Of a DNA stretch of 64,000 nt, positions 13,082 to 45,757 are shown piece after piece. Below the pieces are notes generated by a model, which was not told where the DNA came from, ran no database searches, and saw nothing but the letters and a program-made list of their open reading frames with translations. The translations under genes were made by a program, and so were the position numbers. The first letter of the stretch is position 1. Each line of letters begins with the position of its first letter. The stretch is from Mytilus trossulus (taxonomy: Eukaryota): assembly GCF_036588685.1 (NCBI RefSeq), contig NC_086376.1:73201630-73265629 (forward strand), given 5' to 3'.

Positions 13082-13147
13082 GTTATAATTAAGCCGACCA
13101 CGCCCCCTTTACTAAAATGTTATAATTAAGCCAACCACGCCCCTTAC
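13082..13147. repeat. Short direct repeat GTTATAATTAAGCC(G/A)ACCACGCCCC x2 in noto intron 1
   Basis: Two near-identical ~26-bp units ~37 bp apart. Confidence 0.7.
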
Positions 13148-14705: not shown

Positions 14706-16053
<1,348 letters not shown>

Positions 16054-18109
16054 TGAAGAATGTGATATTTAGATGCGTATATTTATCTTCAATAATGGTA
16101 GTAGCATAACTACCCTGTATACTGTAAAATGATATTATGAGACCAGAACCGGCCGAGAATATCAGCTGAGTGTGTTTGGTAACCTGACGTTAACTGTGAT
16201 CGTTATTCAAGATTTGTTTACTGTGTAAATCTTTTAACTGTAAATTAAACCTTAATAGTGCTATAAAATATGTAATGACAGAATGAATGAGACTGAAAGA
16301 TTATTTAAAACTTAGATTTATAATTGTTGTTGAAATAATAAATTAAAATGATTTTGAACATTGTAGTTGTTTCCCTTAAACTGTCTTTACTAATTTGAAC
16401 GCACTATAACGAAAGCCTGTAAGGTTAAATGTACTCATTTCTTATATCATGTGGACCAGAATTAAGTCTTGGAGCTTTTTTTCTCCACCGTTCTTTGTTT
16501 CTAACGAATGCTACTTTTTCGATATACTCGCATATGGTGATGAAAACAACATGATAAACATCATACCAGGTTAGGTTGGAAGTAAAGCATAATACAGTTG
16601 TAACATGCTTCTTTTTACATCAGAAAATGCTATGTTAATATATTGAACTGTGTAATTCAACATTCTTAACATTAATGCATGAAAGGTTTGATGTAACAGA
16701 CCAATTTAAATGTGTTTACCGGTAGACAAATTTGAAGTATCAAATAAGTTCTTAAAACATCTACGTTTCTTTTTCATGAATTTTCTTTAGGATCTCATTT
16801 CCATAAATAAACAGTAAGATGGTGCTGACATTAATTTGTTTATTGGTCTTTTATTTGGATAATGACCAGCATGGAACACAGTCTTTAACATTATTGAATG
16901 ATTGTACACTTAAGTTTGCTTCTAATGTGGTTCCACGGCAACAAAAAACAATAATGTCTTCATTTAACGAGAAATAATGAAAATGAAGTGTCTGGTTCTG
17001 TGGACATAATTAAAACATCACTCAATAACGTAGAACTAATGATCAGGGTCTTTGACGGATCAGCTAATTTCCCGCGTTAAATATGGTCGCCATGTCAGCC
17101 ATTTCATTTGACGTTTTTAATAAAGACGATTAATGACAATGAGGCTGCACACTCCTGTTAATTCATTTACATGCTAGACGACTTAACTTTCCATTATTTA
17201 GACGTCTAGCGACATTACAGAGACAGAGACAGTAGCAAGGCTCAAGTAGATAATATTGATAAATGTCAGATGTAAACAAGGACATTTTGCACGCATTTTA
17301 AATTAAAAGAAGGAAATTGTAAGTTTAGAAATTGCGAATTCGTTCTTTACAATTGAAGACATATGAAGGTTTTATTTAAAGACAACGTATGAACTTTTGG
17401 TATTAGAATTCAAGTTATCGCTCGCTAAAATAATAAGCTTACATTGTGATTATTTACAATTGAATTGATGAGTTTCTTGTCGAAATATACATTTTACCTT
17501 CATATCGTTCTTTTGGCCCAACTTGGTTTTTTTTCTCTCAAGAAAACGAACGCGGATACATTAAGTATATAAAACAATCTTTTTGTTTTGTAAACATAGA
17601 AGTAGTTAACTGCTTTCTTATATCATACTATGTATAAATTGTCACTTTATGTGGTAACGCCGGGTCTAATAAAATCGAAAATTATAATATTTTTTTTCAC
17701 TGCCGACAAGCACATATCGTCTTAGGTTTTTCATCCTTGGTCGGCGGGATAACATCAGATTTGTACTTTGTATGAATAAACGTATAAATACTCTGCAACG
17801 TCCCGGGTCTGTATTTTAGTTGGATTTATTTCTGCTTAGGCCACACCAATTTGATTACTTGTTCGACGGACCCGCGCGCACGTGTTTTTTTCTAAACAGA
17901 AAAAAAATATTTTTTTTATTTTCCCGCTTCCCGCATCCGGAAACAAAATCGTGTCTTTTTCCCGCATCGGTTTTTTCGAAAAAATTTATAAAAACTCAAT
18001 TAAATCGCCAAAGTGTTTTAGTCCACGGCAAATCGCAATGATTTTACTGTTTATATCTAAAACACAGATTTCTTATCACAGTCAAAAACAAATAATTTCA
18101 ACAAGTATC

Positions 18110-21100
18110 ATGCCGATTTTTGTGGTAAGAATTAAGGACTCACAAGGAGGGGAGGTGTTGCCGTCCACGGCAATATCGTTTGCCGGTGGCAGTTTTGTTG
18201 AACTCTTTACGTATTGCGTCGGAATTAAAAAACTCAGCCTTTCATCTGACAATGTAACAGCAGTGTACTTGAAAGAGAGTATGAAGTCAGACCACATAGC
18301 GGCCGATAACGCTGACATGGACGTTTTGGATCTAACCACAGCATTGGGTTGTAAGTTTGTTGAGTATATTATACGTAGATCTGCATGTCCTGAATCTAGC
18401 ACTTGTACTAATATTATAAATAACATTGCTTCAGCTTCAAATAATTTACCCAGTAGGCCTAGCACAAATGCATTTAGTATACTTATGGGGAATAGGTGTA
18501 AAGTTGTTTTACCAGACAAACCTAAGACAGATGGTGCCAAGAAACTTTCTGGCCCTCAAAGACTTTTATGTCATGTAATTGACCTAATGGAGTCCAAAGG
18601 ATGTGGCTGGACTGTAGATTGCCTGGATACAGCTAACTTTGTTGCAAAGTCATTAAGAGACACATTGTGGTACATCGACCATGCCCATAAAAAACTATCA
18701 GATAGTGCTTGTCATGTTCCAAAGATCTTTGATAAATTTCAGGGTTATAATGAGTTCAAAAAGATACATCATCGACCCCCCATCATCACATCTCAAAGAT
18801 TAAATGAGCTCTCTGTTGACTTGTCAAAATCATTATCATTTCCCTCCATTTTATCTTCAAGGAATAAAAAATTCAGTGATGACATAGAACAACTTCTGGA
18901 ATGCATAACTAAATACAAAACACGTTTAGACAAGGACAATATTCAACATAAAGAGTCGTATCAGTCAGGTGACACACCAAGGCGTTCTCTTGAATCCGAT
19001 ACATCTTTGAAATACATACCTCCAACTACTGAGAGTCGTGAGTCCTATGGAACATTACAATCTGACCTTAATAAAATTGATGACTATAGATTTGTTGACC
19101 TTGATAAATATGCACCTGAAGATAGGGTTAAAAGAAGGATGTTCATAAAAAATCTAGAAATTGAAGTACCCATAATGTTGTATAGAATGGCTTATGGTGG
19201 CTCCATTGGAACCTTAAATTTTATATGGAAGGTACCAGAGGAACAGAGTAGTTATCGTGAAACAAGAAATGTCAAAATTGTAAATAAGATAAACGCAACA
19301 TTGCCCAAGTTTTCCACTAGGTCTATGCGCAGAGATTTTTTAAACAGATATTGTAAACTTGTAAAATCACCTAGGTCTGTATTGAGAAATATTTTTTTTG
19401 AGTTAACTGGTTGTGAAGCTGTATCTGAAACCAAGGAGCAAGCAGAAGTTGATGAGCGCGTAACTGAACTATTGCTTAATAGTGATGATTCAAACCTACT
19501 CCTTGATTATAGGACACTGAATGGAAAAGATATTGATACCAAATTTGGGACATTTTTCGAGGAAATGGGTAAATTTTTTGATGAACAGATTCTTCAGGTA
19601 AATGAAAGGCGACGAGGTCAGGAGCTATATTTACCAATGGCTATCTCATTGGAAGATCTAAGAAACCAGATCGTGAAACGATTGCCTAATGACACACCTA
19701 TACCTTGTACAGAAACTATAAGATTACAATTCCAACCAAACAGCGCTTTTCAAAAATCAGCATTAAAATACTCATGTAGATTTAATGTAAAATTCCGTGT
19801 TCAGACAAGACAAGCAAGAGTTTCGCACCCAGATGCAAGATATGTTGCCACATCATTAAAATATCTCAAAGAGTTCTGTGTAAAAAACAGGAAGTATTCC
19901 ACATTTGTTTGTTTAGATGACAAAGCTATTGTTCCGGTTGGAGAACCTGGTGTACCAATTAGCACTGGAGTTCGTGGTCACAACAAAGTGCTTGCTCCAG
20001 CAGATGGTCCGAAATTAGTAGCCACAGATCACGATTTTCATCTTGGTGGCCTTGTTCCCTCTGTGGCTTTTGTAAGCGATATTCCAAAGAACTCAAATGA
20101 TAGCTTCTTCAATGGACATATATATGTTACAACTAAAGATAAAGTTTTCCAAGCATCTACACCTTATCGTCATGCAACTGAGCTAACAAGAATTTTAAGA
20201 GAGAACTACTCTGATGATGATGTCAATCTAGAAACACCCATACTATGTTTAATGACAGATGGAGGTCCTGATCATAGGGTAACTTTCGGGACTGTCCAGC
20301 TATCACTGATTCAGCTATTTATCGCATTAGATCTAGATATGCTCATAGCATTAAGAACAGCACCGAATCACAGCTGGATGAATCCAGCAGAGCGTTGTAT
20401 GTCAATTTTAAATTTATCCCTGCAACATTGTGCACTTTCAAGGAAAGAGATGCCTGAGACCTTTGAAAAAGCAGTTAAACACAAGTCCACTCTTACAGCT
20501 GTCAGAAACTTGGCCTTCATAAAAACTGGGTTCAGAGAGGCTTATGATGAATCTATCAAAAGTGTTATTGATATAGTTAACTCTAGATTTGAGAGGATGA
20601 GATTTAAGGATGATTACCTCACAACTTATAAAGGAGTCACAGAAAACCAGATCATGGATGCTCTTGAAGTGGTTTGCCAGGTCTTGAATAAAGAATTAAA
20701 GGTAGACATGTCTAGTGGAGAATTGCGCAAGGTTAAACAAGTGCAGGTAATTTTTGAAGCGTTTTCTCATAGAGAAGATTTTTATATACCTGTCATTTAC
20801 TAGGGATGCGTTGCAGAAAAATGATAAAACACGGACTAGACTGTCCCTTACATTGTTATTAACAGTGTAAATTTATATTTTATATATATATATATAATAC
20901 TTGATACATGTACAGTATATGAGTAGACCAAATAGTAATTTAATTTATAGATTCTCATCTACATGACCAGAACAAAATGATGCAAGTTGCAGTCTAACTT
21001 TTATTGATTTGGTGCCAATTGCTTTAAATATTGTCATTAATTAAATAGCTTATTAATTGATGATTGAATACAGTTTATTTTCAAATTTGGATGTAAAAAT

Positions 21101-23550
21101 GATGGATAGGGATGAGAATCTACATATTAAATTGATTTTATAGCTTTATGCTTCTTTTAAATAGTATAGTATAACTAAATAAACATGACATTAAATAGCT
21201 AGTGTAATATACCCATATCTTTAGCACTGCATTCATGTATACACTCTTTATGTCATACAATCATATATGTCAGGCATGTGATCCAACATTTTATTCATAT
21301 ATACATTTTATACATGTACTGCATATTATATTGATCACTTCTGTTAAGATTTAAGATGCTTATATATAATACTACTATGCGTTCATACCATATACAGCTC
21401 ATGCAGCTCACACTTCTAATTTACTATCACAACAAACCGCAAAATATGTTATTTGATGTCAATAGTCTAGGATAAGATAATTAAAAAAAACAAAAACAAT
21501 ACTGATACTTGTACTTTAGACTTATGATACTCAATTGTTTTGTTCAATGGCAACATGCATAAAAATACATGAACAAAATAAAAGTTCAATCATCTTTTTT
21601 AAAAAGATGTTCTTGAATTCTCATATTCAACACCATTTTTATTTCTATAAAATTATCATTGAGTTCCCAAGGGTCACCTCTGACTGCTTATACTTATCTA
21701 GATAGGTTAGTTACTCTAAGACTTTAATATGCACATTGTTCATGCTACCTATTTATGTTTCATTTGAATAATATGAGGTTTTTTTCTTTACACAACTTCA
21801 GGATTTTATAGCCCGGCATGGAAGGAGCAGTCATTATGCATTCCAGCTGAAAAAGTGCAATGATTGTCCTTACTGTGAAATCAACCCCCCAAGGATACCA
21901 GAGGACAAATTTCAGGACCTGCATTTCCTACCCAACCCTGTGCCTGGAGAAAACAACCAATATAAGTCTTTCTCAGAGGTCAGTAAAGGATGTACATGTA
22001 GTTAAGAATATGTGACAAGGACTACATTCATGATCTTACATGATTAAAAAAAAAAGTATAAACATGATAAATACATGTCAGAAAGACAGCAATTCACAAC
22101 TTTCAAAGAAAATATATAAGAAACTAAACTATGTGTGATTTGTTTTTCTGGATTAACCTTCATCAGACATACATGTACTAATGGTCAATTCCTATTGACA
22201 CAGCAAACCTAAACTTAATATAGTCTCATGTCAGACAATGTCAATGTTTTAACAACAAAAGAAATAACACAATATGACAGTATTATACTATAAAGTAATC
22301 TGACAAAGGGTTCTTGTATTTATGAATATCCTAAGTAAAATAATTTCATACTGCACCAACTTGTCAATGCATTATTTATCCATGCCAAGAAATTAGCTTT
22401 TCTATGAAGTAAATTCATTTTATATATTACAGCTTTATGGACAAAATACTGGAGAGGAACAACACAGACCGGGGGCGGCACATAAAGCAGAAGAGAATGA
22501 AAATGATAAACAACGTAGAGATTTATTCAAAAACAACAAAGTCCGAGAAGTAATTTTGTGCAGTGAATGCTCAAAACCACGCTGTATTTTCAGTGAAAAG
22601 AAATTGTCCAGGGAACAGGTATTATACCTTTCATACTGCAGGTGTTTTTTTTACATCGATGACACCTATAATATAATCATCAGAATATTTTTATACATTC
22701 TTAAGATGTATAGATGTCCTACAAGGTCTTTACATATACACAATATAAAAAAAAATTGTGGTATGAGACATCTCTTTTCATTGAAGGGACCAAATGACAC
22801 AGAAATTATTAATTGTAGAACACTACAGTCTTCAACAATGAGCAAGGCCCATAACACATAGTCAGTACAAATGTAACTTTACACAAGGTTTTTCAATAAC
22901 CAATTGTATTAAACCATATGTCTTGGTTCTCTGACTTGGTTAAGGTTTTAATGTTTTCATATCTCTGACTCAGTAACAAGGTGACAAAGACTTCAAAGTA
23001 ATTCTTGCATACAAAAAACTGGGTTCGTATTTAATGAAGATTCTCTATGTTTAATATAATGTTTTACATGTTATTTATTCTTAATATTATAGAAGAGATT
23101 TGTTCTTTTTTTAGTATGTGTAAGCTTTACTATGATATACTGGTATTCTTAGGATGTGGTCAATTATAAAGCATTGTGATATTTTCATTTCAATTTTTAT
23201 CATTTCAGGATGAACTGATTCTCAGATTAAAAGAAGATTCCTTTTACACATGTGGTGGGGCTTTGGTCCAAGATGACTCAGAAACTGTTGACATTGTTGT
23301 TAGAGAGGCACTGGCATGTAATTCACCAATTGAAACGACATATTACAGTGCCTCACTAAAGCACTATCTTCCCCCTGTGTGTGTTCATTGCGGAACAGCT
23401 GAGGACCTCCTAGATGATAATAACCCGTATATATCAGCACTCTACGAACAATATTCTGTCGTACGACCTCTATGTGAAGTGTGTAGAAATTCAGGAAAGG
23501 ACACAAAAACATGGGGAAAAAAATTTGTTGGGAAAAAGGCAAAGCATTAA
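18110..23550 (+). CDS. Zator-type DD43E transposase, 4 exons: 18110-20746, 21802-21978, 22433-22618, 23209-23550 (~1,113 aa)
   Basis: Motifs CLDDKAIVPVG, DHDF, TDGGPDH and APNHSWMNPAERCMS; three GT-AG phase-0 introns join in frame; Cys-rich C-terminus. The start could instead be ATG 18038. Confidence 0.85.
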
Positions 23551-23727
23551 CTTTGTAAGCTGGGGCATCCATTGTGTAAATTTGTTTGATATCAGAGATA
23601 AATTAAACAATTGCACTCATTTAGATATTTTTTATTCTGCATGTAAATTATACCATTGGTTTTCCTATTTGAATTGGTTAACACTAGTAATTGTTGGGCC
23701 CTTTTAGTTTGCTGTTTCGTATGAGAC

Positions 23728-23870
23728 TAGGCTTTGGATTGAATGCTGTATGTTGACATATATAATAGTTAACTTTAAATACATTGTATTGTACTTTGTC
23801 TAGGCTTTGGATTGAAGGCTGTATGTTGACAAATAATTGTTAACTTTAAATACATTGTATTGTACTTTGA
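23728..23870. repeat. ~72-bp tandem duplication inside the transposon 3' region
   Basis: CTAGGCTTTGGATTGAA.GCTGTATGTTGACA..TAACTTTAAATACATTGTATTGTACTTT x2; present in all three TE copies. Confidence 0.8.
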
Positions 23871-24562
23871 TTGAGAGTTGTCTCATTGGCACTTGTACTA
23901 CATCCTATTTATATCAACAGGACAAAAAGATAACACCAAAAACAATGGAGACACAGAAAACCAACATTTAATACAAAAAAAATGAAAGTACAACCATTAA
24001 TGAACAGCATGAACCCCAAAAACTGGGTAAACTCAGGTTTTCGGAAAGGATGAACAGTTCCTGCTTCTTGCAAGACACTGCTGTGTTTCTAGCGGCATCA
24101 TGTAGATAATTTATAAGGCAGTTGAAGTTATTCATTTATTCAGTTCAAGATCTGATATCATCATGATCATCAAAAAGTAATGGTATTAAATACAAGAAGT
24201 CATAAATATGCTGAAATAAAATGTGAGGCAGTTGAGAAATTTAGCAAATATCAATGTAAAAGTGGTAATTCTAGTTTCAAACCATTTTATTTTTGTCAGA
24301 ACCTTTGATTTTATGTTTACAAAAAAAAAGTTAATCGCTCGCCTCTACTTTTTAAGCTTCGCCTCAAAAAATTTCAATTTCATTTTTTTTTTATTAAAAT
24401 TTTCAAATCGCTCGCTCGCCCCAATTTCTGGAGTGGAAAAATCCGTAGAACAAGAAATTAAATTGGTGTGGCCTTAGTATCGTTCTAATGAGTTAAGCCT
24501 TTTTCAACTTTTTTTTTATTATATTTTTGAAACTATATTTATTTCGATTTGGAATATCTTCG

Positions 24563-24631
24563 CTAGCCAAAAGTAACGATCAGCTCCCCTCCTCCTGGAG
24601 AGGAGGATAGTGGATCGTAACCCTTGGCTAG
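24563..24631. repeat. 69-nt GC-rich foldback (also at 38882-38950)
   Basis: CTAGCCAA..GTAACGATC..CCTCCTC / GAGGAGG..GATCGTAAC..TTGGCTAG. Confidence 0.6.
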
Positions 24632-25784
24632 AACGCGGGTGCACTCCAGATATAAAAATTGTTTACATGCTACACACAAGATTTTCAAATATTTTCCATA
24701 TACAATTGCAAACTGTTGGAATACAGGTATATAGAAGCTGCACGGTAGATCTAAAATTGTTTACATGTTACAACTCAACCAGCTAGCTGAAGTTCAAACA
24801 TAAAATCATCCCCTTTCCTAGAAATTTGACAAATGTTCTAAGGTCTTCAAGACGGAAGGACAGACTGATGTAGTCGAATGGCGTTAGCAACGCAGGTGCA
24901 AATTGTAATCAGTCAGCTATGAGTTATGGCTCTTTGGTCGACGATCAAAACCCTCCTAGTTGGCAAAAAGTGTTTAAAATTCATAAATTTCAGTAAATTG
25001 TCATATTTTTGATCCATTTTGCAACATTTTTAAAGTATCATTCCCTTCCTTTATGCCTGAAGATATTGAGTTGAACATCTCATCATCTGTTATTCTTTGA
25101 AAGCTTTTCATTATTAAATCTCTATGGTATTTTTTTCTATATCATTCATAATCATTGTATTACATATCTGTGCTGTTATGGGAATAACACTGTTCTCATA
25201 TATACATCACAATTCGAAAACGTTTCTAATTCTTTCTACATTGCTGAATTGAATGTAAAGAAAGTAAGTATCTTTACATATACCTATATACACGTATCTT
25301 AAAAATTAGTAATAACCCGATTTTTATCAAAAATTTCTTAAGTGTTCTTTTTTTTCAAATTCACAAATCAATCAGACAACGTTAACCATAGATAGACTTC
25401 AAAAAGGTATGACAATAATACCAAACGCCAAGGCAAATTAAAAAATAGGGGGAAGGCCATAAAAGTTTACTGACAAAATCAAAAGCAAACGTGACTTTAT
25501 AAACTTTAAAATAAGAATTTACAACTGTCACCGGATTTGTACTTACCGATCCCCGAAATTAAAATACAGTCTGTTAATTGCGTCAATTTAACTTTTGAAC
25601 AGCCGTATACTACAGTTGAATTTATTTACACTAAATCCATCATCGAATGTTGGATGTGTACTGATTGATATTTATGTCTTAGATACATGTTATTGACTTT
25701 GAATTATGCTGTTAGAAACTGCAAGTACTCTCAGACTTGTACTTTGTGTTTCTTTATTGTTTGAGACCGATATATTCTGATGAG

Positions 25785-26058
25785 TTAAGTTTGTACCCAA
25801 CACCTTCACTAAAATTAATTTGGCTCGTTCATAAAATTTCAACAAAGTATTTACTTTGACCCTTTGACAAAAATATAAAAATTTCAAAAAATTTAAACCA
25901 ACCAATTTATCAGAAAAATTACACTGGTTATATAGCAGTTTGACAAACAATAATTTTGATCATTGAGAAGCTTAATATTCCCTCAACAACACAACGGAAT
26001 TAAAACGTTTAGCTGATTTTACAGAGTTATCTCCCTGTAGTGTTAGGTACCACCTTAA
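25785..26058. mobile_element. TTAA-flanked MITE (Kolobok/piggyBac-type target), also at 40104-40377
   Basis: TTAAGTTTGTACCCAACAC / GTGTTAGGTACCACCTTAA; it interrupts the repeat CTGATGAG-TTAA-(T)GCTTTTTCA, which is uninterrupted at ~24487. Confidence 0.7.
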
Positions 26059-26445
26059 TGCTTTTTCACCTGATATTTATAGGTTGTTATCAAATTGTAA
26101 TAAGTTATCAAAGGTACCAGGAATGATTATAATTCAATACGCCAGACGTGCGTTCAGTGACGCTCAGATCAAACAATTATAAAGCCAAACAAGTACAATG
26201 TTGAAGAGCATTTAGGATAAAAAATTCCAAAAGTTGTGCCAAATACGACTTAGGTTGTTCTGAAGCACCACTGTCTCAGAGTTTGTCCAAAGCCATGATG
26301 AGGTAGTTCAGTGGTTTTTGTTGGTTTATGTATGTAATATGTGTTTTTCGTAAATTATTTTGATATAAATTAGACTATACGATATTGTTGAAGGCTTTAA
26401 GATTGTATTGATTGCTTACATTCACTTCATTTGAACTTTGGTGGG

Positions 26446-26804
26446 TAACGTGACGGTACCTAATTTGCACCTATTTTATCATTTTTCTCTCACCTTTTTG
26501 TATGATCTAGACAAAAGTTTCCATGTTGTGTTTTTTATAGATGTATTATTGTTTACTATATAATCACAGCAATTCAATTTTGAATCCATATTGAATCATA
26601 CCCTAATTGCATCCATGTTTAAATTTACACACTTAAAAATTGCATAACAAATGTTATTTCCTTTTCTTCAAATATTTAGAACAATTTGACATTAGTCCAT
26701 GTATATGTATATATAAATATTAAGTGTTAAGTCCCAAATAAAAACGTGTAAGATTTCTACAGCTATTTTTGTGGAATAGGTGCAATTTAGGTACTGTAAC
26801 GTTA
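26446..26804. mobile_element. TA-flanked MITE with ~30-bp TIR, also at 40765-41123
   Basis: TAACGTGACGGTACCTAATTTGCACCTATT / AATAGGTGCAATTTAGGTACTGTAACGTTA; inserted into a copy of the dispersed repeat. Confidence 0.75.
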
Positions 26805-27762
26805 GTTGTATTGTTGGTAACCATACCAAAATCTTCTTAATTTCATAAAGCTTACACAATATCATTGTGAATAAATTACTAATTGTTTTTTGTTGTTATT
26901 GCTATTTTTTGTATTTCTTGTCAAAGATGATGATTAGTGCAGCTTTAAAAATATATTAGAACCAATGATCATGGTTATGTACATTTTATTATAATAAGCA
27001 TAGAAATGTTATCATATGATAGAAAAAAGCTAAGATTTTGGCAATCAAACAAGAAAAGACAAGGTATCACAGCAATTATGATTGCCAAACAAATGCAGTG
27101 ACAAGATAGCATTTGATGACAGAAAAATAAACGCAATTAAGATCATTATATTTCTTGGCCTAAAGATCTTCTAAAAGTGTGGACTGCATCTGTAAAATTT
27201 TTGGACAATGACACTCACTGTTTTCTAATTGCTCTTTTTTTTTAAAGTTGAAATATTGATATATTCCCTCTGTGTAAATCAGATGTAATCTACTCATATA
27301 ATCAAGACTAACGTTTCTTAGATAGAAGAGTATAACATTGCATCGAATACATATACACTAATAGGGTTCAAATTCGACTACAAAAGTCCTTGTCGAAGTC
27401 TTATCGAACTAAAAGTACTGTTCTATTTATAACACGAGTAACCTTGAAATAAGGTTTATTGTAATCCTTCAATAGATTTAAAAGAACAGAATGTTATCGA
27501 ATTAAGTTTACATGTAAAGATCAGGGTTAAATGAAATAGTCCTGATGATGTGCCGTGTAGCAGTTCAATTTTCGTTTTTGAAAAAGTCCATAAAAGTATA
27601 CATATAAATTGCTATCTGGGTTATATTTGGTGTTGGATTTATAGCCATATCTGAAGACCTATAGCTGGATTATAAAGAGACTTTAAGCTATAAAAATAAG
27701 GCATACAATATAAGTATAATTTAATTAATGAGTCATTTAAATTTAATTCAACAATAAAATAT

Positions 27763-29690
27763 TCAAAAACAGACAGGAGACATCATATGATGTTCTCTTT
27801 TACTTTGTCGAATTTTGCTTTTAGCTAACCACTCCAATGGTTTAGATTGGACGGAATTATTTTCGTATGAATTAAAATCTTTGTTTTGAATATCACTACT
27901 ATACTTTCCAGTTTTTAATTCAGTTTTCTCACCAACACAACTGTCTTCAACTAAATGAACCGATTTTTCGACTTTATTCTCATTCTGTGTTCTTTGCAAT
28001 GCGTTGTTATCTTTTATTTGTACTATTGACTCGTGTCCGGTAGCGGCTATTTCAACTTTGTCTGTTTTTGTGTGGCCTTCCGAACAATATAGCATCAATT
28101 TTTCTGGTGAAACAAGATAAAGTTTTGAGTTTACCAAGAACTCACGTAAGTTTATAGCACTTTTTGTACTTCGTAGTGCTGCGTTGGTCGAAGATTTTTG
28201 TGAAATCGATACTATATCGTTAGAATCGATATCGTCCGAGTGACAAATTCGGGAAATCACATTGTCTTTTATTTCTGAGTTGTTGTTATCGTTTGGGTGT
28301 TTTTCTTTATTTACATCATCTAAACTTGACCATCGTTTCGTTTGTTTTAAATCTTTGACCATCGATTGTTTATTCAATTTAGAAAATCGATCAATACATG
28401 ATTTATCTAGATGACTGCTTTTCCTTCTTATTTCATTTTTATTTTCATCCTTATAAGAAGCCCTAAGTTGAGATATTCCATTAAAACTGGACCTTCTTTT
28501 CATATATTGCGAGTCTTGAAACACTGAATTCTCAAATTTCACGCTTCTGTTTAATTCGTTAACATCCATTTTATTCTCTTTTTCCGTATATGTCGAATAT
28601 TCATCGCATCCATAAGGAAACATTTGTGCTACATCATGTAAACTAGACCTTCGTCTTACACAAGACAAATTTTGATGTACTTTATTTTTATCTGAATTGT
28701 GCATCACGGTATAGTTCTCTTTTCGGCCAATTCTTGTTTCTGTATTTTCTTCTTGCGTACATCGTTTGACTGATTTAACGTTAACATTATCAGATTTTGC
28801 AGTGAATCTTAGCTTTTCAACTTTCTTTGAAATTGAATGGTCCAAAGTACTTTTGTCTTTATCGTTATTGAATGGACTGCTTTCTTGTGGACTGCAAGAA
28901 TCATCAAACAAATCTGAAACATGATAAGTGTTTTAATGGACGTACTAGAATTTGATTTGTTTTTTCAATGATTAAAGACAACGTAATACACATATATACA
29001 TATTTATCATACGTTTAGTAGTAAATACAGTAGTTTTGCATATTTGATAAATAGCCTGCTGTTTAATCCATATCGCGCAACTTTGATGCGCACCCTTTAT
29101 CGCATACCCTTTATCACACCCCTACCCTTTATCGCATACCCTAAGGGCCCTTGGGCTGATATTGATGTCTCGGGATGATACAACATATGATACGGATTTG
29201 CCATGTATTATTCCCTATATAAAGAATCAATTTATGCACGTTTTAACAACTGGATCTCAATGTCGTAAACTAAGAATAAAATAGTTTAACCTATTTTGAT
29301 ACTTTTTTCTAGCAATCAATGTCTTTGATATAAATTTATATAAAAATGTTATATATTAGATTGAAACTTCTGATATTGTTTTTTTTAGTATACTGTATGT
29401 TCATAATTCATTTTCATTGTAACACTAAGAAAAGGTCCACAAAATTAACCCTAATGTTAGTTAATTCACAATCTACAAAATACAAGCATTATCTCCATCA
29501 ACTATATACCTTCATTTTCTTCTGTAATTGTTTCCCCGAACCTTTCGAGAGCTGAGTACAAGTTGTATGGTCTAGAGGAATTTTGAAGATCTGATATCAC
29601 GAAACCGTCATCAGATTCTTCATCAAAGAAACTTTTTCCATTGGAATGTGGGATGGTTCCTTGAAGTGCATTTCTCTTGTTAAAATACAT
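27763..29690 (-). CDS. Uncharacterised, probably disordered Ser/Lys/Asn-rich protein (~443 aa), copy 1; coding exons 29690-29510 and 28913-27763
   Basis: ATG at 29690; donor G|GTATAT and acceptor TTTCAG| join in frame (phase 1); probable 5'UTR intron 30717-29723 (GTAAGT..TTTGCAG); colinear similarity to the ORF at 60346-61200. Confidence 0.7.
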
Positions 29691-31406
29691 CGTAACAGTT
29701 CACAAGCTGGTTCAAAATAAGTCTGCAAATATAAAATTTTCTATGAACACTACAAAAAGCAAGATTGAACTTGCTCTTTAACTTGAACTGAAGACTGTCT
29801 TTCAAGTTTGTAATTTGAAATTCAAAATTAGACGTCCTAATATTACTTATCCAAATTCATACGTCGATAAACCGATGACAAAACACGAAAACAAAACAAA
29901 TAGACAAATAACAATCCACAAAACCGAAAGTCTGAGCAACACATACATAACCACGACAACTTGAACAGATTTCAAGTGCTTCAGAAGGATAGAGAGATCC
30001 TGATCAACATGAGTAAATGACTACACAACCTACTGACTGAATGCAGACTATAGAGACGTTTAAAAGAATTGCTGGTCATCAATTGGAGTAAACAAAGAGC
30101 ATAAATTATCATTTTCATCGCCTATGACATGTGTCATTTAGGATTGAAAAGAGCAGTAGCAGTGTCTGTAAGTTGAGAACAAAGAAGCAACAAGTGTTGT
30201 GGCTAAATAGAATATTGTACGCAAAAAGACTTAATAACTTGTGTTCTCCCTACATATATATAGCTATGGCGTTGTCAGTTTATTTCGTTCTATCAGTTTG
30301 ACTGCACCTCTGGTATCTTTCGCCCCTCTTTTTTTGAATTTTTTGTCACATGATATTAGGCAGACACCATCTGAAAGGTCGACCTCATGGTTATGATGTT
30401 ACAACGTACGAGTTCTCCTTTCCAAATTCGGTACTGGCGACACAAATAAGTGGCCTCTTAATCATCGTTATCAATTATTTAAAAATCAACACCGAGTCTG
30501 TTTTAAATATAAATAGTTAGTGGAGTCGTACATGGGTCAATTTCAAAAACTATTCTTATTTTGAGGCAGATCCTCATATCAAACTCGAAATTGTGTACAA
30601 ATTCAAACATACTACGCATAAAATTTAAAAACGGGTAAAAACGTATTATTGTTAACGCATAGTTAATTTATGACTTTTTAATTTCTGATACTAATAATTA
30701 AAATTCATTTCACTTACCAAAGTTATGGTTAACAATCATATTCATGTATATAAAAAATGATTGGTGGTTTCCTCAACAGGTGAATATTGTCCCAAAACAA
30801 AAACCAAAATGTCCCACAGAGTTTCGACCCAACACAAATATAATAAAAGTCATATTGTAAATATGGTTAAATTGTGGCATGATCACATTTAACCTTGCAT
30901 AACCTTTAGATTGTTTACTAAACATGACATGTTTTTACGATCTAATTATATTCTGAAATAACAAATGGATAAAGGTCGTCATTGCTATACAACATGTCTC
31001 GGTACAACCAGAAGTTTGTTAGACAGGAATTTACGGAATTGTCTATTTTTGTCCTTCAGTATTCCAAAATATTCAACATCCCCAATTGCGCATGTTTTTA
31101 GACAACAAGTCGAAGGTTTGCAACTAGTCCAGAATAGTTTTTATTTTTTAAAGTTGTTAGATGTTAGATGTTAGAAATTGTTTTGAAAGATTTTACTGAA
31201 CAAACAATCAAGTTGTGAAAGTGTGAACACCCCAAAACTAAGCTTCTTACACGTTTGTTAACATCGGTCCATGTAATTTATTTCAAAACTTTAATCCTAC
31301 ATTATAACAACAAAATATAAATGTAAATTTAAAATGCTTGTTGCCATGTCTTCAATATTATCAATAGATTTGCATTAAAAACATGTTCTATAATATTTAA
31401 ACCTAC

Positions 31407-31438
<32 letters not shown>

Positions 31439-31464
31439 TCTTTTCTAGATATAGGATTTTGATT

Positions 31465-31592
31465 GATTTGGTTTTTTTATGTTTTAACGCCACTTTGGAG
31501 ACCCGCATTTAGGCTATTTCGTGGCGTCCAGTTTTTATTAGTGAAGAAGCCGGAGTGTCCTGAGAAAACCACCGTACTTCGATAGGAAAACT
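31465..31592 (-). mobile_element. SINE 3' fragment (Deu/Nin-domain-like), also at 45784-45911
   Basis: TTTAACGCCAC..GGCTATTTCGTGGCG..GAAGCCGGAGTGTCCTGAGAAAACCACCG resembles the mollusc SINE conserved domain; adjacent T-rich tract. Confidence 0.5.
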
Positions 31593-32157
31593 TGATATAG
31601 CGGAAGATGTGGTATGGGTGCCAATGAGACAACTCTCAATCCAAGTGACAATTTATAGAGGTAAATAATTATAGGTCATGGTACGGTCTTCAACACGGAG
31701 CAAAGGTTAACATCGAACAAGAAGCTATAAAGGGTCACAAAATTACTAGTGTAAAACCATTTAAACGGGGAAACATACGGTCTAATCTATATAAAAAAAC
31801 GAAAAACACTTATGAACTACATAAAACATATTCGACATTATACTACAACGGATTTGCAGGTGTTAATCTAAACGTGTATAAGAGAGTTGGTCAATTTTTG
31901 TTGATAAAATAATGTTAATCCTTTTCAGATAGCAATAAAAGTCAATAAGAAATAACATTTCTTTTTATGATAAACCATGAAAAGAAAGAAGATGGTATCA
32001 TTACCGAGATGATTGTTTATTTCAATATAATTTAGATCACCTTGAAACTTGAGGTAAAGTGGTATCGATTTTTTTGTGAAAACTTTGCAAAAATGTAGTC
32101 ACTGCATATGGATAACAAATACTTTGTCTCATTTCTGGGTTTATTTGATTGTTATAA

Positions 32158-35100
32158 GGCCACACCAATTTGATTACTTGTTCGACGGACCCGCGCGCAC
32201 GTGTTTTTTTCTAAACAGAAAAAAAATATTTTTTTTATTTTCCCGCTTCCCGCATCCGGAAACAAAATCGTGTCTTTTTCCCGCATCGGTTTTTTCGAAA
32301 AAATTTATAAAAACTCAATTAAATCGCCAAAGTGTTTTAGTCCACGGCAAATCGCAATGATTTTACTGTTTATATCTAAAACACAGATTTCTTATCACAG
32401 TCAAAAACAAATAATTTCAACAAGTATCATGCCGATTTTTGTGGTAAGAATTAAGGACTCACAAGGAGGGGAGGTGTTGCCGTCCACGGCAATATCGTTT
32501 GCCGGTGGCAGTTTTGTTGAACTCTTTACGTATTGCGTCGGAATTAAAAAACTCAGCCTTTCATCTGACAATGTAACAGCAGTGTACTTGAAAGAGAGTA
32601 TGAAGTCAGACCACATAGCGGCCGATAACGCTGACATGGACGTTTTGGATCTAACCACAGCATTGGGTTGTAAGTTTGTTGAGTATATTATACGTAGATC
32701 TGCATGTCCTGAATCTAGCACTTGTACTAATATTATAAATAACATTGCTTCAGCTTCAAATAATTTACCCAGTAGGCCTAGCACAAATGCATTTAGTATA
32801 CTTATGGGGAATAGGTGTAAAGTTGTTTTACCAGACAAACCTAAGACAGATGGTGCCAAGAAACTTTCTGGCCCTCAAAGACTTTTATGTCATGTAATTG
32901 ACCTAATGGAGTCCAAAGGATGTGGCTGGACTGTAGATTGCCTGGATACAGCTAACTTTGTTGCAAAGTCATTAAGAGACACATTGTGGTACATCGACCA
33001 TGCCCATAAAAAACTATCAGATAGTGCTTGTCATGTTCCAAAGATCTTTGATAAATTTCAGGGTTATAATGAGTTCAAAAAGATACATCATCGACCCCCC
33101 ATCATCACATCTCAAAGATTAAATGAGCTCTCTGTTGACTTGTCAAAATCATTATCATTTCCCTCCATTTTATCTTCAAGGAATAAAAAATTCAGTGATG
33201 ACATAGAACAACTTCTGGAATGCATAACTAAATACAAAACACGTTTAGACAAGGACAATATTCAACATAAAGAGTCGTATCAGTCAGGTGACACACCAAG
33301 GCGTTCTCTTGAATCCGATACATCTTTGAAATACATACCTCCAACTACTGAGAGTCGTGAGTCCTATGGAACATTACAATCTGACCTTAATAAAATTGAT
33401 GACTATAGATTTGTTGACCTTGATAAATATGCACCTGAAGATAGGGTTAAAAGAAGGATGTTCATAAAAAATCTAGAAATTGAAGTACCCATAATGTTGT
33501 ATAGAATGGCTTATGGTGGCTCCATTGGAACCTTAAATTTTATATGGAAGGTACCAGAGGAACAGAGTAGTTATCGTGAAACAAGAAATGTCAAAATTGT
33601 AAATAAGATAAACGCAACATTGCCCAAGTTTTCCACTAGGTCTATGCGCAGAGATTTTTTAAACAGATATTGTAAACTTGTAAAATCACCTAGGTCTGTA
33701 TTGAGAAATATTTTTTTTGAGTTAACTGGTTGTGAAGCTGTATCTGAAACCAAGGAGCAAGCAGAAGTTGATGAGCGCGTAACTGAACTATTGCTTAATA
33801 GTGATGATTCAAACCTACTCCTTGATTATAGGACACTGAATGGAAAAGATATTGATACCAAATTTGGGACATTTTTCGAGGAAATGGGTAAATTTTTTGA
33901 TGAACAGATTCTTCAGGTAAATGAAAGGCGACGAGGTCAGGAGCTATATTTACCAATGGCTATCTCATTGGAAGATCTAAGAAACCAGATCGTGAAACGA
34001 TTGCCTAATGACACACCTATACCTTGTACAGAAACTATAAGATTACAATTCCAACCAAACAGCGCTTTTCAAAAATCAGCATTAAAATACTCATGTAGAT
34101 TTAATGTAAAATTCCGTGTTCAGACAAGACAAGCAAGAGTTTCGCACCCAGATGCAAGATATGTTGCCACATCATTAAAATATCTCAAAGAGTTCTGTGT
34201 AAAAAACAGGAAGTATTCCACATTTGTTTGTTTAGATGACAAAGCTATTGTTCCGGTTGGAGAACCTGGTGTACCAATTAGCACTGGAGTTCGTGGTCAC
34301 AACAAAGTGCTTGCTCCAGCAGATGGTCCGAAATTAGTAGCCACAGATCACGATTTTCATCTTGGTGGCCTTGTTCCCTCTGTGGCTTTTGTAAGCGATA
34401 TTCCAAAGAACTCAAATGATAGCTTCTTCAATGGACATATATATGTTACAACTAAAGATAAAGTTTTCCAAGCATCTACACCTTATCGTCATGCAACTGA
34501 GCTAACAAGAATTTTAAGAGAGAACTACTCTGATGATGATGTCAATCTAGAAACACCCATACTATGTTTAATGACAGATGGAGGTCCTGATCATAGGGTA
34601 ACTTTCGGGACTGTCCAGCTATCACTGATTCAGCTATTTATCGCATTAGATCTAGATATGCTCATAGCATTAAGAACAGCACCGAATCACAGCTGGATGA
34701 ATCCAGCAGAGCGTTGTATGTCAATTTTAAATTTATCCCTGCAACATTGTGCACTTTCAAGGAAAGAGATGCCTGAGACCTTTGAAAAAGCAGTTAAACA
34801 CAAGTCCACTCTTACAGCTGTCAGAAACTTGGCCTTCATAAAAACTGGGTTCAGAGAGGCTTATGATGAATCTATCAAAAGTGTTATTGATATAGTTAAC
34901 TCTAGATTTGAGAGGATGAGATTTAAGGATGATTACCTCACAACTTATAAAGGAGTCACAGAAAACCAGATCATGGATGCTCTTGAAGTGGTTTGCCAGG
35001 TCTTGAATAAAGAATTAAAGGTAGACATGTCTAGTGGAGAATTGCGCAAGGTTAAACAAGTGCAGGTAATTTTTGAAGCGTTTTCTCATAGAGAAGATTT

Positions 35101-38100
35101 TTATATACCTGTCATTTACTAGGGATGCGTTGCAGAAAAATGATAAAACACGGACTAGACTGTCCCTTACATTGTTATTAACAGTGTAAATTTATATTTT
35201 ATATATATATATATAATACTTGATACATGTACAGTATATGAGTAGACCAAATAGTAATTTAATTTATAGATTCTCATCTACATGACCAGAACAAAATGAT
35301 GCAAGTTGCAGTCTAACTTTTATTGATTTGGTGCCAATTGCTTTAAATATTGTCATTAATTAAATAGCTTATTAATTGATGATTGAATACAGTTTATTTT
35401 CAAATTTGGATGTAAAAATGATGGATAGGGATGAGAATCTACATATTAAATTGATTTTATAGCTTTATGCTTCTTTTAAATAGTATAGTATAACTAAATA
35501 AACATGACATTAAATAGCTAGTGTAATATACCCATATCTTTAGCACTGCATTCATGTATACACTCTTTATGTCATACAATCATATATGTCAGGCATGTGA
35601 TCCAACATTTTATTCATATATACATTTTATACATGTACTGCATATTATATTGATCACTTCTGTTAAGATTTAAGATGCTTATATATAATACTACTATGCG
35701 TTCATACCATATACAGCTCATGCAGCTCACACTTCTAATTTACTATCACAACAAACCGCAAAATATGTTATTTGATGTCAATAGTCTAGGATAAGATAAT
35801 TAAAAAAAACAAAAACAATACTGATACTTGTACTTTAGACTTATGATACTCAATTGTTTTGTTCAATGGCAACATGCATAAAAATACATGAACAAAATAA
35901 AAGTTCAATCATCTTTTTTAAAAAGATGTTCTTGAATTCTCATATTCAACACCATTTTTATTTCTATAAAATTATCATTGAGTTCCCAAGGGTCACCTCT
36001 GACTGCTTATACTTATCTAGATAGGTTAGTTACTCTAAGACTTTAATATGCACATTGTTCATGCTACCTATTTATGTTTCATTTGAATAATATGAGGTTT
36101 TTTTCTTTACACAACTTCAGGATTTTATAGCCCGGCATGGAAGGAGCAGTCATTATGCATTCCAGCTGAAAAAGTGCAATGATTGTCCTTACTGTGAAAT
36201 CAACCCCCCAAGGATACCAGAGGACAAATTTCAGGACCTGCATTTCCTACCCAACCCTGTGCCTGGAGAAAACAACCAATATAAGTCTTTCTCAGAGGTC
36301 AGTAAAGGATGTACATGTAGTTAAGAATATGTGACAAGGACTACATTCATGATCTTACATGATTAAAAAAAAAAGTATAAACATGATAAATACATGTCAG
36401 AAAGACAGCAATTCACAACTTTCAAAGAAAATATATAAGAAACTAAACTATGTGTGATTTGTTTTTCTGGATTAACCTTCATCAGACATACATGTACTAA
36501 TGGTCAATTCCTATTGACACAGCAAACCTAAACTTAATATAGTCTCATGTCAGACAATGTCAATGTTTTAACAACAAAAGAAATAACACAATATGACAGT
36601 ATTATACTATAAAGTAATCTGACAAAGGGTTCTTGTATTTATGAATATCCTAAGTAAAATAATTTCATACTGCACCAACTTGTCAATGCATTATTTATCC
36701 ATGCCAAGAAATTAGCTTTTCTATGAAGTAAATTCATTTTATATATTACAGCTTTATGGACAAAATACTGGAGAGGAACAACACAGACCGGGGGCGGCAC
36801 ATAAAGCAGAAGAGAATGAAAATGATAAACAACGTAGAGATTTATTCAAAAACAACAAAGTCCGAGAAGTAATTTTGTGCAGTGAATGCTCAAAACCACG
36901 CTGTATTTTCAGTGAAAAGAAATTGTCCAGGGAACAGGTATTATACCTTTCATACTGCAGGTGTTTTTTTTACATCGATGACACCTATAATATAATCATC
37001 AGAATATTTTTATACATTCTTAAGATGTATAGATGTCCTACAAGGTCTTTACATATACACAATATAAAAAAAAATTGTGGTATGAGACATCTCTTTTCAT
37101 TGAAGGGACCAAATGACACAGAAATTATTAATTGTAGAACACTACAGTCTTCAACAATGAGCAAGGCCCATAACACATAGTCAGTACAAATGTAACTTTA
37201 CACAAGGTTTTTCAATAACCAATTGTATTAAACCATATGTCTTGGTTCTCTGACTTGGTTAAGGTTTTAATGTTTTCATATCTCTGACTCAGTAACAAGG
37301 TGACAAAGACTTCAAAGTAATTCTTGCATACAAAAAACTGGGTTCGTATTTAATGAAGATTCTCTATGTTTAATATAATGTTTTACATGTTATTTATTCT
37401 TAATATTATAGAAGAGATTTGTTCTTTTTTTAGTATGTGTAAGCTTTACTATGATATACTGGTATTCTTAGGATGTGGTCAATTATAAAGCATTGTGATA
37501 TTTTCATTTCAATTTTTATCATTTCAGGATGAACTGATTCTCAGATTAAAAGAAGATTCCTTTTACACATGTGGTGGGGCTTTGGTCCAAGATGACTCAG
37601 AAACTGTTGACATTGTTGTTAGAGAGGCACTGGCATGTAATTCACCAATTGAAACGACATATTACAGTGCCTCACTAAAGCACTATCTTCCCCCTGTGTG
37701 TGTTCATTGCGGAACAGCTGAGGACCTCCTAGATGATAATAACCCGTATATATCAGCACTCTACGAACAATATTCTGTCGTACGACCTCTATGTGAAGTG
37801 TGTAGAAATTCAGGAAAGGACACAAAAACATGGGGAAAAAAATTTGTTGGGAAAAAGGCAAAGCATTAACTTTGTAAGCTGGGGCATCCATTGTGTAAAT
37901 TTGTTTGATATCAGAGATAAATTAAACAATTGCACTCATTTAGATATTTTTTATTCTGCATGTAAATTATACCATTGGTTTTCCTATTTGAATTGGTTAA
38001 CACTAGTAATTGTTGGGCCCTTTTAGTTTGCTGTTTCGTATGAGACTAGGCTTTGGATTGAATGCTGTATGTTGACATATATAATAGTTAACTTTAAATA

Positions 38101-38792
38101 CATTGTATTGTACTTTGTCTAGGCTTTGGATTGAAGGCTGTATGTTGACAAATAATTGTTAACTTTAAATACATTGTATTGTACTTTGATTGAGAGTTGT
38201 CTCATTGGCACTTGTACTACATCCTATTTATATCAACAGGACAAAAAGATAACACCAAAAACAATGGAGACACAGAAAACCAACATTTAATACAAAAAAA
38301 ATGAAAGTACAACCATTAATGAACAGCATGAACCCCAAAAACTGGGTAAACTCAGGTTTTCGGAAAGGATGAACAGTTCCTGCTTCTTGCAAGACACTGC
38401 TGTGTTTCTAGCGGCATCATGTAGATAATTTATAAGGCAGTTGAAGTTATTCATTTATTCAGTTCAAGATCTGATATCATCATGATCATCAAAAAGTAAT
38501 GGTATTAAATACAAGAAGTCATAAATATGCTGAAATAAAATGTGAGGCAGTTGAGAAATTTAGCAAATATCAATGTAAAAGTGGTAATTCTAGTTTCAAA
38601 CCATTTTATTTTTGTCAGAACCTTTGATTTTATGTTTACAAAAAAAAAGTTAATCGCTCGCCTCTACTTTTTAAGCTTCGCCTCAAAAAATTTCAATTTC
38701 ATTTTTTTTTTATTAAAATTTTCAAATCGCTCGCTCGCCCCAATTTCTGGAGTGGAAAAATCCGTAGAACAAGAAATTAAATTGGTGTGGCC
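32158..38792 (+). mobile_element. Zator-like transposon copy 2 (hybrid flanks TAA / TTA)
   Basis: Matches copy 1 at +14,319; left flank equals the copy-3 left flank and right flank equals the copy-1 right flank. Confidence 0.9.
32429..37869 (+). CDS. Zator-type transposase copy 2; exons 32429-35065, 36121-36297, 36752-36937, 37528-37869
   Basis: Translation identical to copy 1. Confidence 0.85.
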
Positions 38793-41700: not shown

Positions 41701-42081
41701 AAAAGTCCTTGTCGAAGTCTTATCGAACTAAAAGTACTGTTCTATTTATAACACGAGTAACCTTGAAATAAGGTTTATTGTAATCCTTCAATAGATTTAA
41801 AAGAACAGAATGTTATCGAATTAAGTTTACATGTAAAGATCAGGGTTAAATGAAATAGTCCTGATGATGTGCCGTGTAGCAGTTCAATTTTCGTTTTTGA
41901 AAAAGTCCATAAAAGTATACATATAAATTGCTATCTGGGTTATATTTGGTGTTGGATTTATAGCCATATCTGAAGACCTATAGCTGGATTATAAAGAGAC
42001 TTTAAGCTATAAAAATAAGGCATACAATATAAGTATAATTTAATTAATGAGTCATTTAAATTTAATTCAACAATAAAATAT

Positions 42082-45725: not shown

Positions 45726-45757
<32 letters not shown>

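What the first reader, a model, noticed from the sequence alone, without database searches (positions are those of the whole stretch)
17839..24473. Apparently intact and very recently active Zator-type element with a spliced ~1,113-aa transposase
Seen in sequence: two independent insertion sites only 7.7 kb apart (local hopping) carry copies with no difference I could find, even in introns. The ORF is uninterrupted and the candidate triad is D (19916, LDDKA), D (20258, TDGG) and E (20390, NPAE), with 43 residues between the second D and E. Established knowledge: GG..CC termini, short TIRs and a 3-bp TWA TSD match Zator, which is related to bacterial TP36 and the IS630/Tc1 fold. The ORF track's 973-aa call has the wrong N- and C-termini; three further phase-0 exons complete the protein. 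It is a candidate for a live element of a poorly studied superfamily, and possibly a mollusc transgenesis tool.
Basis: partly seen in the sequence, partly recalled or inferred. Interest (0 to 1): 0.7.

Follow-up and report, generated by a model that had tools for sequence, protein, structure and literature searches.

The report
Fresh Zator transposon duplicated mussel gene
Four letter-identical copies of an intact 6.6-kb Zator-like jumping gene lie within 194 kb of one mussel chromosome; three are separate, likely very recent jumps and the fourth is a hybrid from a 14-kb duplication, likely made at the element's own ends, that also copied a host gene's whole coding sequence, which makes it a good candidate for testing a little-studied transposon group.

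Summary
Observation confirmed and extended. The element is 6,635 bp with 32-bp TIRs and TWA target duplications. Its 1,113-aa transposase has a predicted RNase-H/mariner-like core with D603-D717-E761 (43 residues between D and E). The core aligns motif by motif, though weakly, with bacterial TP36/ISAzo13 and not with Harbinger. Zator membership is likely but indirect: no Zator reference sequence was available.

There are four identical copies, not three; the fourth is 141 kb beyond the window. Three are true insertions. The middle window copy is a hybrid with mismatched flanks (TAA/TTA). It comes from an exact 14,319-bp tandem duplication that breaks inside the 14-bp identical TIR tips and copies the coding sequence of a 443-aa host gene. 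Read depth fits a real duplication and four copies on one haplotype, but the junction itself was not seen.

RNA contigs from two studies splice introns 2 and 3. They keep intron 1, which truncates the protein at 897 aa, so the full-length mRNA is not yet shown. Verdict: a new, likely recently active member of a known superfamily, with two testable extras: end-swap gene duplication and a possible P-element-like splicing brake. Activity is inferred, not assayed.

The parts
17839..24473 (+). E1, full-length 6,635-bp element, true insertion with TTA/TTA TSD (17836-17838, 24474-24476)
17839..17870 (+). 5' TIR, 32 bp; outer 14 bp identical to the 3' TIR
24442..24473 (-). 3' TIR, 32 bp, 3 mismatches to the 5' TIR; 394 exact copies of this 32-mer in the genome
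18110..20746 (+). Transposase exon 1 (aa 1-879); Met1 matches the start of oyster homologues
18110..18379 (+). Predicted N-terminal ubiquitin-like (beta-grasp) domain, aa 1-90; missing from the 988-aa NCBI model
   Evidence: (Z 7-8.3 to many ubiquitin-like folds)
19811..20617 (+). RNase-H-like DDE core, about aa 568-836; best structural match Mos1/Metnase
19916..20392 (+). Predicted triad D603 (19916), D717 (20258), E761 (20390); D2-E spacing 43
20747..21801 (+). Intron 1, seen only retained in RNA contigs; in-frame stop at 20801-20803 gives an 897-aa product
21802..21978 (+). Exon 2 (aa 880-938), conserved C898/C901/C904
   Evidence: intron 2 joint seen
22433..22618 (+). Exon 3 (aa 939-1000), CxxC; carries the lineage marker A at 22485 (K956; T/Ile in all other runs covering it)
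23209..23550 (+). Exon 4 (aa 1001-1113 plus stop), further conserved Cys pairs
   Evidence: intron 3 joint seen
24474..32157 (.). Spacer S1 (7,684 bp host DNA), identical to S2
27763..29690 (-). Host gene, complete two-exon CDS of an uncharacterised 443-aa protein (P0172), copy 1
   Evidence: spliced in RNA contig
32158..32171 (+). Duplication breakpoint: 14-bp TIR tip shared by the E3 3' end and the E1 5' end
32158..38792 (+). E2, hybrid copy: left flank of E3 (TAA), right flank of E1 (TTA)
38793..46476 (.). Spacer S2, second copy
42082..44009 (-). Host gene CDS, copy 2
46477..53111 (-). E3, inverted full-length copy, true insertion with TAA/TAA TSD (46474-46476, 53112-53114)

Best explanation
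This is an intact 6,635-bp DNA transposon, likely of the Zator superfamily, present as four identical copies that likely arose very recently on one chromosome copy: three by local cut-and-paste jumps into TWA sites, and one by a 14.3-kb tandem duplication that likely joined the cut or invaded tip of one copy to the matching tip of another. SHOWN: ends, TSDs, identity, a marker base shared by all four copies, the hybrid flanks of E2, the breakpoint in the TIR tips, the duplicated host CDS, and splicing of introns 2 and 3. PREDICTED: RNase-H core with triad D603/D717/E761, N-terminal beta-grasp domain, Cys-rich C-terminal region. INFERRED mechanism: the transposase binds the 32-bp TIRs, excises the element in mariner/IS630 fashion and inserts it at TWA with a 3-bp duplication, often nearby. 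With E1(+) and E3(-) in place, the E1 5' TIR and the E3 3' TIR are direct repeats. A break at the E3 tip on one sister chromatid, joined crosswise to or repaired by template switch onto the E1 tip, gives A-E1-S-E2-S-E3-B in one step. INFERRED regulation: most transcripts in the sampled RNA keep intron 1 and would give an 897-aa protein lacking the Cys-rich end; the full enzyme would need intron-1 splicing, perhaps only in the germ line.
For: Identity and junctions. E4 sits in a 59-bp minisatellite that closes up cleanly when the element and one TAA are removed. Only four 100% copies were found in three own-genome searches, all on C4 within 194 kb. Marker A22485 versus T in X2, X16, X17, X18, X23 and Ile in the related-species protein P0122. 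Depth in DNA run X1 (possible source): element 107.6, spacer reference contigs mean 51.9 (9 values), spacer alternative-allele contigs mean 28.5 (6 values), ratio about 3.8:1.8:1, fitting 4 elements and 2+1 spacers. No third spacer-gene copy in the assembly. TSDs match in 21 of 22 complete non-autonomous relatives, so the TAA/TTA mismatch of E2 is atypical. Two identical 1,458-bp relatives with different TSDs lie 43 kb apart on C12, an independent recent hop. D603 96/96, D717 96/96, E761 95/96; spacing 43 in 94 of 95. Fold: Mos1 is the best match, Foldseek E 1.9e-4; VIA Z 10.5, rmsd 3.4, 171 aligned. TP36 ORF L072 is the best hit of the core profile among ORFs from 39 TP36, Harbinger and IS630 loci (E 8.8e-5), with collinear motifs. 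Homologues without intron 1 read through aa 879/880 in frame, including an intronless TIR-bounded element with TTA TSD.
Against: The E2 left junction was not seen in X1. One X1 contig (46349-46498, depth 48) runs unbroken across the point where it should branch, and no empty-site joint was listed for E3; this needs pruning of a short contig and a diverged homologue there. The profile-profile match to TP36 is weak (probability 2.5%, E 0.019) and IS630 scored higher (15%, E 0.0017). Pfam PF07592 does not hit the element. No Zator reference sequence was compared. No intron-1 splice was seen, so a functional mRNA is not shown. X1 may be the assembly's own source and is not independent. No activity assay.
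Confidence: 0.75

Rival explanations
1. The element is real, but E2 and the second spacer are an assembly error; E3 is homozygous and the extra spacer depth comes from an unassembled paralogue.
For: The junction was not seen in short-read contigs and the X1 contig is unbroken across 46490; 14,319 bp with 0 differences; E3x2+E1+E4 also gives four copies.
Against: It needs a homozygous spacer plus a hidden diverged copy, whereas 2:1 allele depths are exactly what the assembly predicts. The window has no N. An assembler is unlikely to invent a join at a 14-bp overlap at an exact transposon end (inference).
Confidence: 0.12
2. The duplication took two steps: a + copy inserted at the TAA site, unequal crossover between the two direct 6.6-kb copies duplicated the spacer, and the last copy later flipped in place.
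For: Three elements bounding two repeats is the pattern expected of unequal crossover (PMC3744419 Discussion); identical copies cannot date the steps.
Against: It needs an extra precise inversion; one tip-to-tip swap explains all junctions.
Confidence: 0.2
3. The copies are young but the element is now silent: intron 1 is simply poorly spliced or the RNA is decay-bound, with no tissue-specific switch and no current transposase.
For: No intron-1 joint in X2, X16 or X17; a frameshifting alternative intron-3 donor in X18; low depth in raw reads X23.
Against: Intron 1 has strong GT/AG sites and its position is conserved in oysters and other bivalves with intact ORFs. Contigs drop rare forms and the tissues are unknown. 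Zero-difference hops exist on two chromosomes.
Confidence: 0.3
4. It is a PIF/Harbinger element or another TWA-targeting superfamily.
For: TWA TSD and GG..CC ends are also typical of Harbinger (recalled).
Against: No PF13359 hit; no profile alignment to 15 mussel Harbinger loci (probability 0.06%, 23 columns); single ORF; mariner-like best fold.
Confidence: 0.03
5. Copy identity comes from gene conversion among old insertions.
For: Close spacing favours conversion (general knowledge).
Against: The host spacers are also identical; depth suggests no copy on the homologue; copies elsewhere in the species differ slightly.
Confidence: 0.04

Closest known systems
Zator superfamily (Bao et al. 2009, not held here; seen only as cited in PMC7386202 and PMC12239620, passages)
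   Same: Single DDE transposase related to TP36 within the IS630-Tc1-mariner group; about 33-bp TIRs and TAA/TTA TSDs as reported for amphioxus Zator-1 (PMC12905397, passages).
   Different: No direct sequence comparison was possible. This member has three introns, a predicted N-terminal beta-grasp domain and 1,113 aa; whether the described Zators share these was not checked.
Amphioxus Zator-1 composite carrying tesDwb (PMC12905397, passages)
   Same: Two inverted Zator copies flank a host gene, as E2(+)-S-E3(-) or E1(+)-S-E3(-) do here; same TSDs; recent activity inferred.
   Different: There the unit appears at new loci. Here no movement of the composite was found (only two spacer-gene copies); instead a tandem duplication broke at the TIR tips.
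Bacterial TP36 / ISAzo13 transposases (PF07592)
   Same: Collinear HPD, DxK, HDF, DxG and PxxSxxNxxE motifs; 42 residues between D and E in L067 against 43 here (counted).
   Different: About 410 aa, no introns; similarity only at the detection limit.
Maize Ac reversed-ends tandem duplications (PMC3744419, abstract and Discussion)
   Same: Tandem direct duplication whose endpoints coincide with termini of two nearby elements; middle element with non-matching TSDs.
   Different: In maize one endpoint is a new target site with a fresh TSD and no element. Here both endpoints are pre-existing element tips and no new TSD was made.
Drosophila P element IVS3 retention (PMC7776569, passages)
   Same: One intron is kept while others are spliced, giving a C-terminally truncated transposase.
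   Different: Unrelated superfamily. In P the short protein is a proven repressor; here nothing is shown about the 897-aa form, which would keep the whole triad, and the retained intron is the first, with two splice junctions downstream of the stop.

Membership tests
Zator | 3-bp TWA target site duplication | tested here: met
   E1 TTA/TTA, E3 and E4 TAA/TAA; 21 of 22 complete relatives. Feature from PMC12905397 passages (TAA, TTA); 'TWA' as the superfamily rule is recalled.
Zator | Short TIRs (about 25-35 bp) with GG...CC ends | tested here: met
   32 bp, GGCC; 33 bp reported for amphioxus Zator-1. The GG..CC rule is recalled.
Zator | Single DDE transposase with RNase-H fold of the IS630/Tc1/mariner group | tested here: met
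   Predicted model, pLDDT 84.6; best matches Mos1 and Metnase; conserved triad.
Zator | Closest bacterial relatives are TP36 transposases | tested here: inconclusive
   Best HMM hit is TP36 (E 8.8e-5) with collinear motifs, but hhalign ranks IS630 above TP36 and both are weak. Atlas named clusters are PF07592 at 0.85 and 0.83, lead only. No PF07592 hit by hmmscan or genome search.
Zator | Clusters with Repbase Zator transposases in a tree | not testable with these tools
   No Repbase/Dfam library; the defining papers are not held; 12 of 33 supplements of PMC10294476 searched, no 'Zator' hit.
PIF/Harbinger | DDE_Tnp_4 (PF13359) transposase | tested here: not met
   No hit on the four exons although the family hits 150 scored places in this genome; no profile alignment.
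PIF/Harbinger | Second Myb/SANT ORF | tested here: not met
   No Pfam hit on any exon; the other frames of 100 aa or more in the element are exon frames or short antisense overlaps; the antisense frames were not scanned.
Tc1/mariner | TA dinucleotide TSD and DD34-41D/E spacing | tested here: not met
   TSD is 3 bp and orientation-matched; spacing 43.
Sola | 4-bp (Sola1/2) or TTAA (Sola3) TSD (recalled) | tested here: not met
   Flanks match over 3 bp, not 4, at E1, E3 and E4.
Currently active autonomous transposon | Full-length spliced mRNA and measurable excision or insertion | tested here: inconclusive
   Introns 2 and 3 spliced, intron 1 only retained in contigs; no assay possible.

The most novel reading that the evidence does not exclude
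A live Zator whose activity is gated by a P-element-like splicing switch (intron 1 kept in most tissue, removed in the germ line), whose transposase carries a ubiquitin-like N-terminal domain, and whose near-symmetric ends let it swap tips between neighbouring copies to duplicate whole host genes within a few generations: a natural source of the gene copy-number variation of mussels and the first Zator ready for a bench test.
Probability: 0.22. Interest if true: 0.78.

Novelty: new member of a known kind. Interest (0 to 1): 0.52.

Why it matters
Zator is a rare, little-studied superfamily. A bivalve survey counted 44 Zator ORFs among 14,275 DDE elements (PMC10294476, passages), and my search for Zator with 'transposition assay' and 'active' listed four papers whose titles concern other elements. 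An intact copy with zero-divergence insertions, defined ends, a triad and about 400 cognate ends in the genome makes cleavage chemistry, end use and activity directly testable. The locus also shows a transposon-bounded duplication of a complete host coding sequence, likely very young, and a candidate splicing brake. If activity is shown, it could become a gene-delivery tool for bivalves; that is speculation at present.

Tried and rejected
Pfam on the four exons: no family. On 14 homologues: nothing above cut-off except a kinase fused in one gene model, plus a weak zf-CW hint in one, E 0.0057. PDB sequence search with the 96-sequence profile: best E 0.12, nothing meaningful. tblastn of the core against plasmids: one IS630 hit at E 4, not counted. 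PF07592 search of the own genome: 0. Two hits in prokaryote genome bins are judged eukaryotic contaminant contigs (long CA microsatellites), not bacterial Zators. No listed holder run is on record as RNA. Raw-read RNA run X23 had depth of about 1 or less over exon 1 and its joint table was cut (313 rows not shown), so it says nothing on intron 1; X18 has no cover at intron 1. Oyster contig ORFs that end at aa 879 were rejected as evidence of conserved retention, since the companion single-exon ORFs point to DNA contigs. No fold match for the Cys-rich C-terminal part, but it was not folded alone; the viral library gave only a generic transposase hit. The Atlas gave no confident family for aa 1-94 (best 0.88). 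Single-event models starting from E1 alone were rejected by reasoning: both E2 and E3 use the same left target end, which needs E3 or a + copy in place first. Literature: 'Zator'+'DD43E' gave 0 papers; 'Zator'+'TSD'+'Sola'+'Harbinger'+'3-bp' gave 0; subscription papers and 21 of 33 supplements of PMC10294476 were not seen and may describe a close oyster Zator. Earlier scan notes: none.
Full report
1. Observation. The element spans 17839-24473 (6,635 bp), starts and ends with GGCC, has 32-bp TIRs with three mismatches (outer 14 bp identical), and is flanked by TTA on both sides. Two more copies in the window, E2 32158-38792 (+) and E3 46477-53111 (-), differ from it at 0 bases. Four phase-0 GT-AG exons (18110-20746, 21802-21978, 22433-22618, 23209-23550) give 1,113 aa with one terminal stop; the triad positions and the 43-residue spacing are as stated. 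An NCBI model labelled Mytilus trossulus (P0002, 988 aa) equals my model from aa 126 on. An oyster protein (P0004, 1,115 aa) aligns from Met1 to the end at 65% without a break at any junction.

2. Copies. Three own-genome searches (5' end, core protein, exon 4) each returned exactly four 100% copies, all on C4 (only the best candidates are scored). The fourth, C4:73406472-73413106, is identical, has a TAA/TAA TSD and interrupts a 59-bp minisatellite that closes up when it is removed. All four carry A at 22485 (K956). The five other runs covering this base read T, and the related-species protein P0122 has Ile, so the four descend from one molecule. With an assumed mutation rate of 0.5-1 x 10^-8 per generation (assumption, not measured), zero differences bound the insertions to under about 15,000-30,000 generations and the duplication to under about 10,000-21,000; these are upper bounds only. 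The exact 3' TIR occurs 394 times, control 0. Of 26 related loci examined (L005-L030), 22 were complete non-autonomous elements of 1.2-1.5 kb, 21 of them with matched TAA or TTA TSDs; 3 showed one end and 1 none. Among 21 members of the 1.45-kb family the median divergence is 4.7%, but L008 and L009 are identical, 43 kb apart on C12, with different TSDs: a second, independent recent local hop.

3. The duplication. Positions 17838-32171 repeat exactly 14,319 bp downstream. E2 has the left flank of E3 and the right flank of E1, so its TSDs do not match. The breakpoint lies in the 14 bp shared by the E1 5' tip and the E3 3' tip, which are direct repeats because E3 is inverted. The 7,684-bp spacers are identical and hold the whole two-exon CDS of an uncharacterised 443-aa protein, seen spliced in an RNA contig. 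In DNA run X1, which may be the assembly's source, the element interior is one 5,663-bp contig at depth 107.6. Nine spacer reference values average 51.9 and six alternative-allele values 28.5 (values I picked from the tables). This fits four elements and two spacers on one haplotype plus one diverged spacer on the other; the assembly holds no third spacer-gene copy. Against: the E2 junction and the empty sites were not listed, and one contig runs unbroken across the expected branch. The junction contig would be only about 43 bases beside very deep TIR nodes and could be pruned (inference). I put the duplication at about 85% real. A one-step tip swap is the simplest route; unequal crossover followed by a flip is the main rival.

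4. The protein. In 96 aligned sequences D603 and D717 are invariant, E761 is present in 95, and the spacing is 43 in 94 of 95. The AlphaFold model of exon 1 (mean pLDDT 84.6) has RNase-H order: D603 on the first strand, D717 just after the fourth, E761 on the following helix. Best structural matches are Mos1 (Foldseek E 1.9e-4; VIA Z 10.5, rmsd 3.4, 171 aligned) and Metnase. Residues 1-90 (pLDDT about 90) match many ubiquitin-like folds at Z 7-8.3, a middling score. Exons 2-4 hold ten or more Cys conserved in nearly all of 48 full-length homologues, likely metal-binding (inference), and a predicted helix runs across the intron-1 junction. A core profile, run on ORFs from 9 TP36, 15 Harbinger and 15 IS630 loci, scored a TP36 ORF best (E 8.8e-5). 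hhalign showed collinear TP36 motifs but low probability (2.5%); IS630 gave 15% and Harbinger 0.06% (2 of the 15 Harbinger ORFs were short pieces). With the TSD and TIR this makes Zator likely (about 90%), but indirectly.

5. RNA. The runs are contigs guessed to be RNA, of unknown tissue. Intron 3 is spliced in X2, X16 and X17; intron 2 in X2 and X17. Intron 1 is different. An X2 contig runs unbroken from exon 1 through the whole intron and is then spliced at intron 2. An X17 contig with introns 2 and 3 removed carries 135 bases of intron 1. X16 contigs cross both intron-1 ends. The joint table, which was not marked as cut, lists no intron-1 joint. That is 3 of 3 informative runs, from two studies; X18 and X23 were uninformative. 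X2 also holds unspliced intron 2 and 3 contigs at lower depth (4.5 and 14.7), and contigs drop rare forms, so this shows retention, not absence of splicing. Retention gives 897 aa with the triad but without the Cys-rich end. The intron position is shared with oyster and other bivalve elements, while more distant homologues read through in frame, so the enzyme likely needs the splice. X18 shows a frameshifting alternative donor for intron 3.

6. Comparison with what is known. Zator and its TP36 link are known (passages of PMC7386202, PMC8533490, PMC12239620; the defining paper was not held). Bivalve Zators are known but rare (passages of PMC10294476). An amphioxus Zator-1 pair in inverted orientation carries a host gene, with 33-bp TIRs and TAA/TTA TSDs (passages of PMC12905397). 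Duplications at element termini are known for maize Ac (abstract and Discussion of PMC3744419), and intron retention as a brake for P elements (passages of PMC7776569). Searches listed no paper whose title or abstract start describes a Zator assay, Zator splicing or this element; subscription papers and Repbase were not searchable.

7. Verdict. A real, intact, likely very recently mobile element, best filed as a new member of Zator. Its added value lies in the TIR-bounded gene duplication, the retained intron and the predicted ubiquitin-like domain, each with known parallels elsewhere and none yet proven here. Interest 0.52.

Noticed in passing
window 8501-16053 (+): Homeobox gene ending about 1.8 kb upstream of E1; homeodomain hit PF00046 in 15724-16050, eh1-like motif in the 8501 frame; the helix-3 sequence resembles Not/Noto genes (recalled).
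   Followed up: partly
window 4567-6093: 39-bp minisatellite, 39 copies, 97% matches, with long open frames that look incidental.
   Followed up: no
window 60346-61206 (-): 286-aa ORF with weak similarity (25%, E 4e-6) to the C-terminal part of the duplicated host gene; probably an older paralogue.
   Followed up: partly
L008 and L009 (G000:C12:23747971 and 23704274): Two identical 1,458-bp non-autonomous elements 43 kb apart with different TSDs.
   Followed up: yes
L005 / L032:1059-2292 (C7): 1,234-bp internal-deletion derivative, 90-94% identical to the element ends, TAA TSD.
   Followed up: yes
L042, L043, L044, L046, L048: Other related transposases in the same genome (43-55% identity in the core) with open frames of 681-904 aa; possibly further intact families.
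   Followed up: no
L065:2472-7185 and L066:3440-7311: Related TIR-bounded elements with TWA TSDs inside two prokaryote genome bins; likely eukaryotic contamination; L065 is intronless.
   Followed up: partly
window 22784-22865 and 23727-23910: Fragments of high-copy host repeats inside intron 3 and the 3' untranslated part of the element, including a 71-bp tandem pair.
   Followed up: no
L037, about 4-9 kb downstream of E4: Coding-looking frames on the + strand, one resembling a TIR (Toll/IL-1R) domain by eye (recalled); E4 may lie in or near that gene.
   Followed up: no
window 57508-58313: Degenerate repeats of about 70 bp at 125-165 bp spacing.
   Followed up: no
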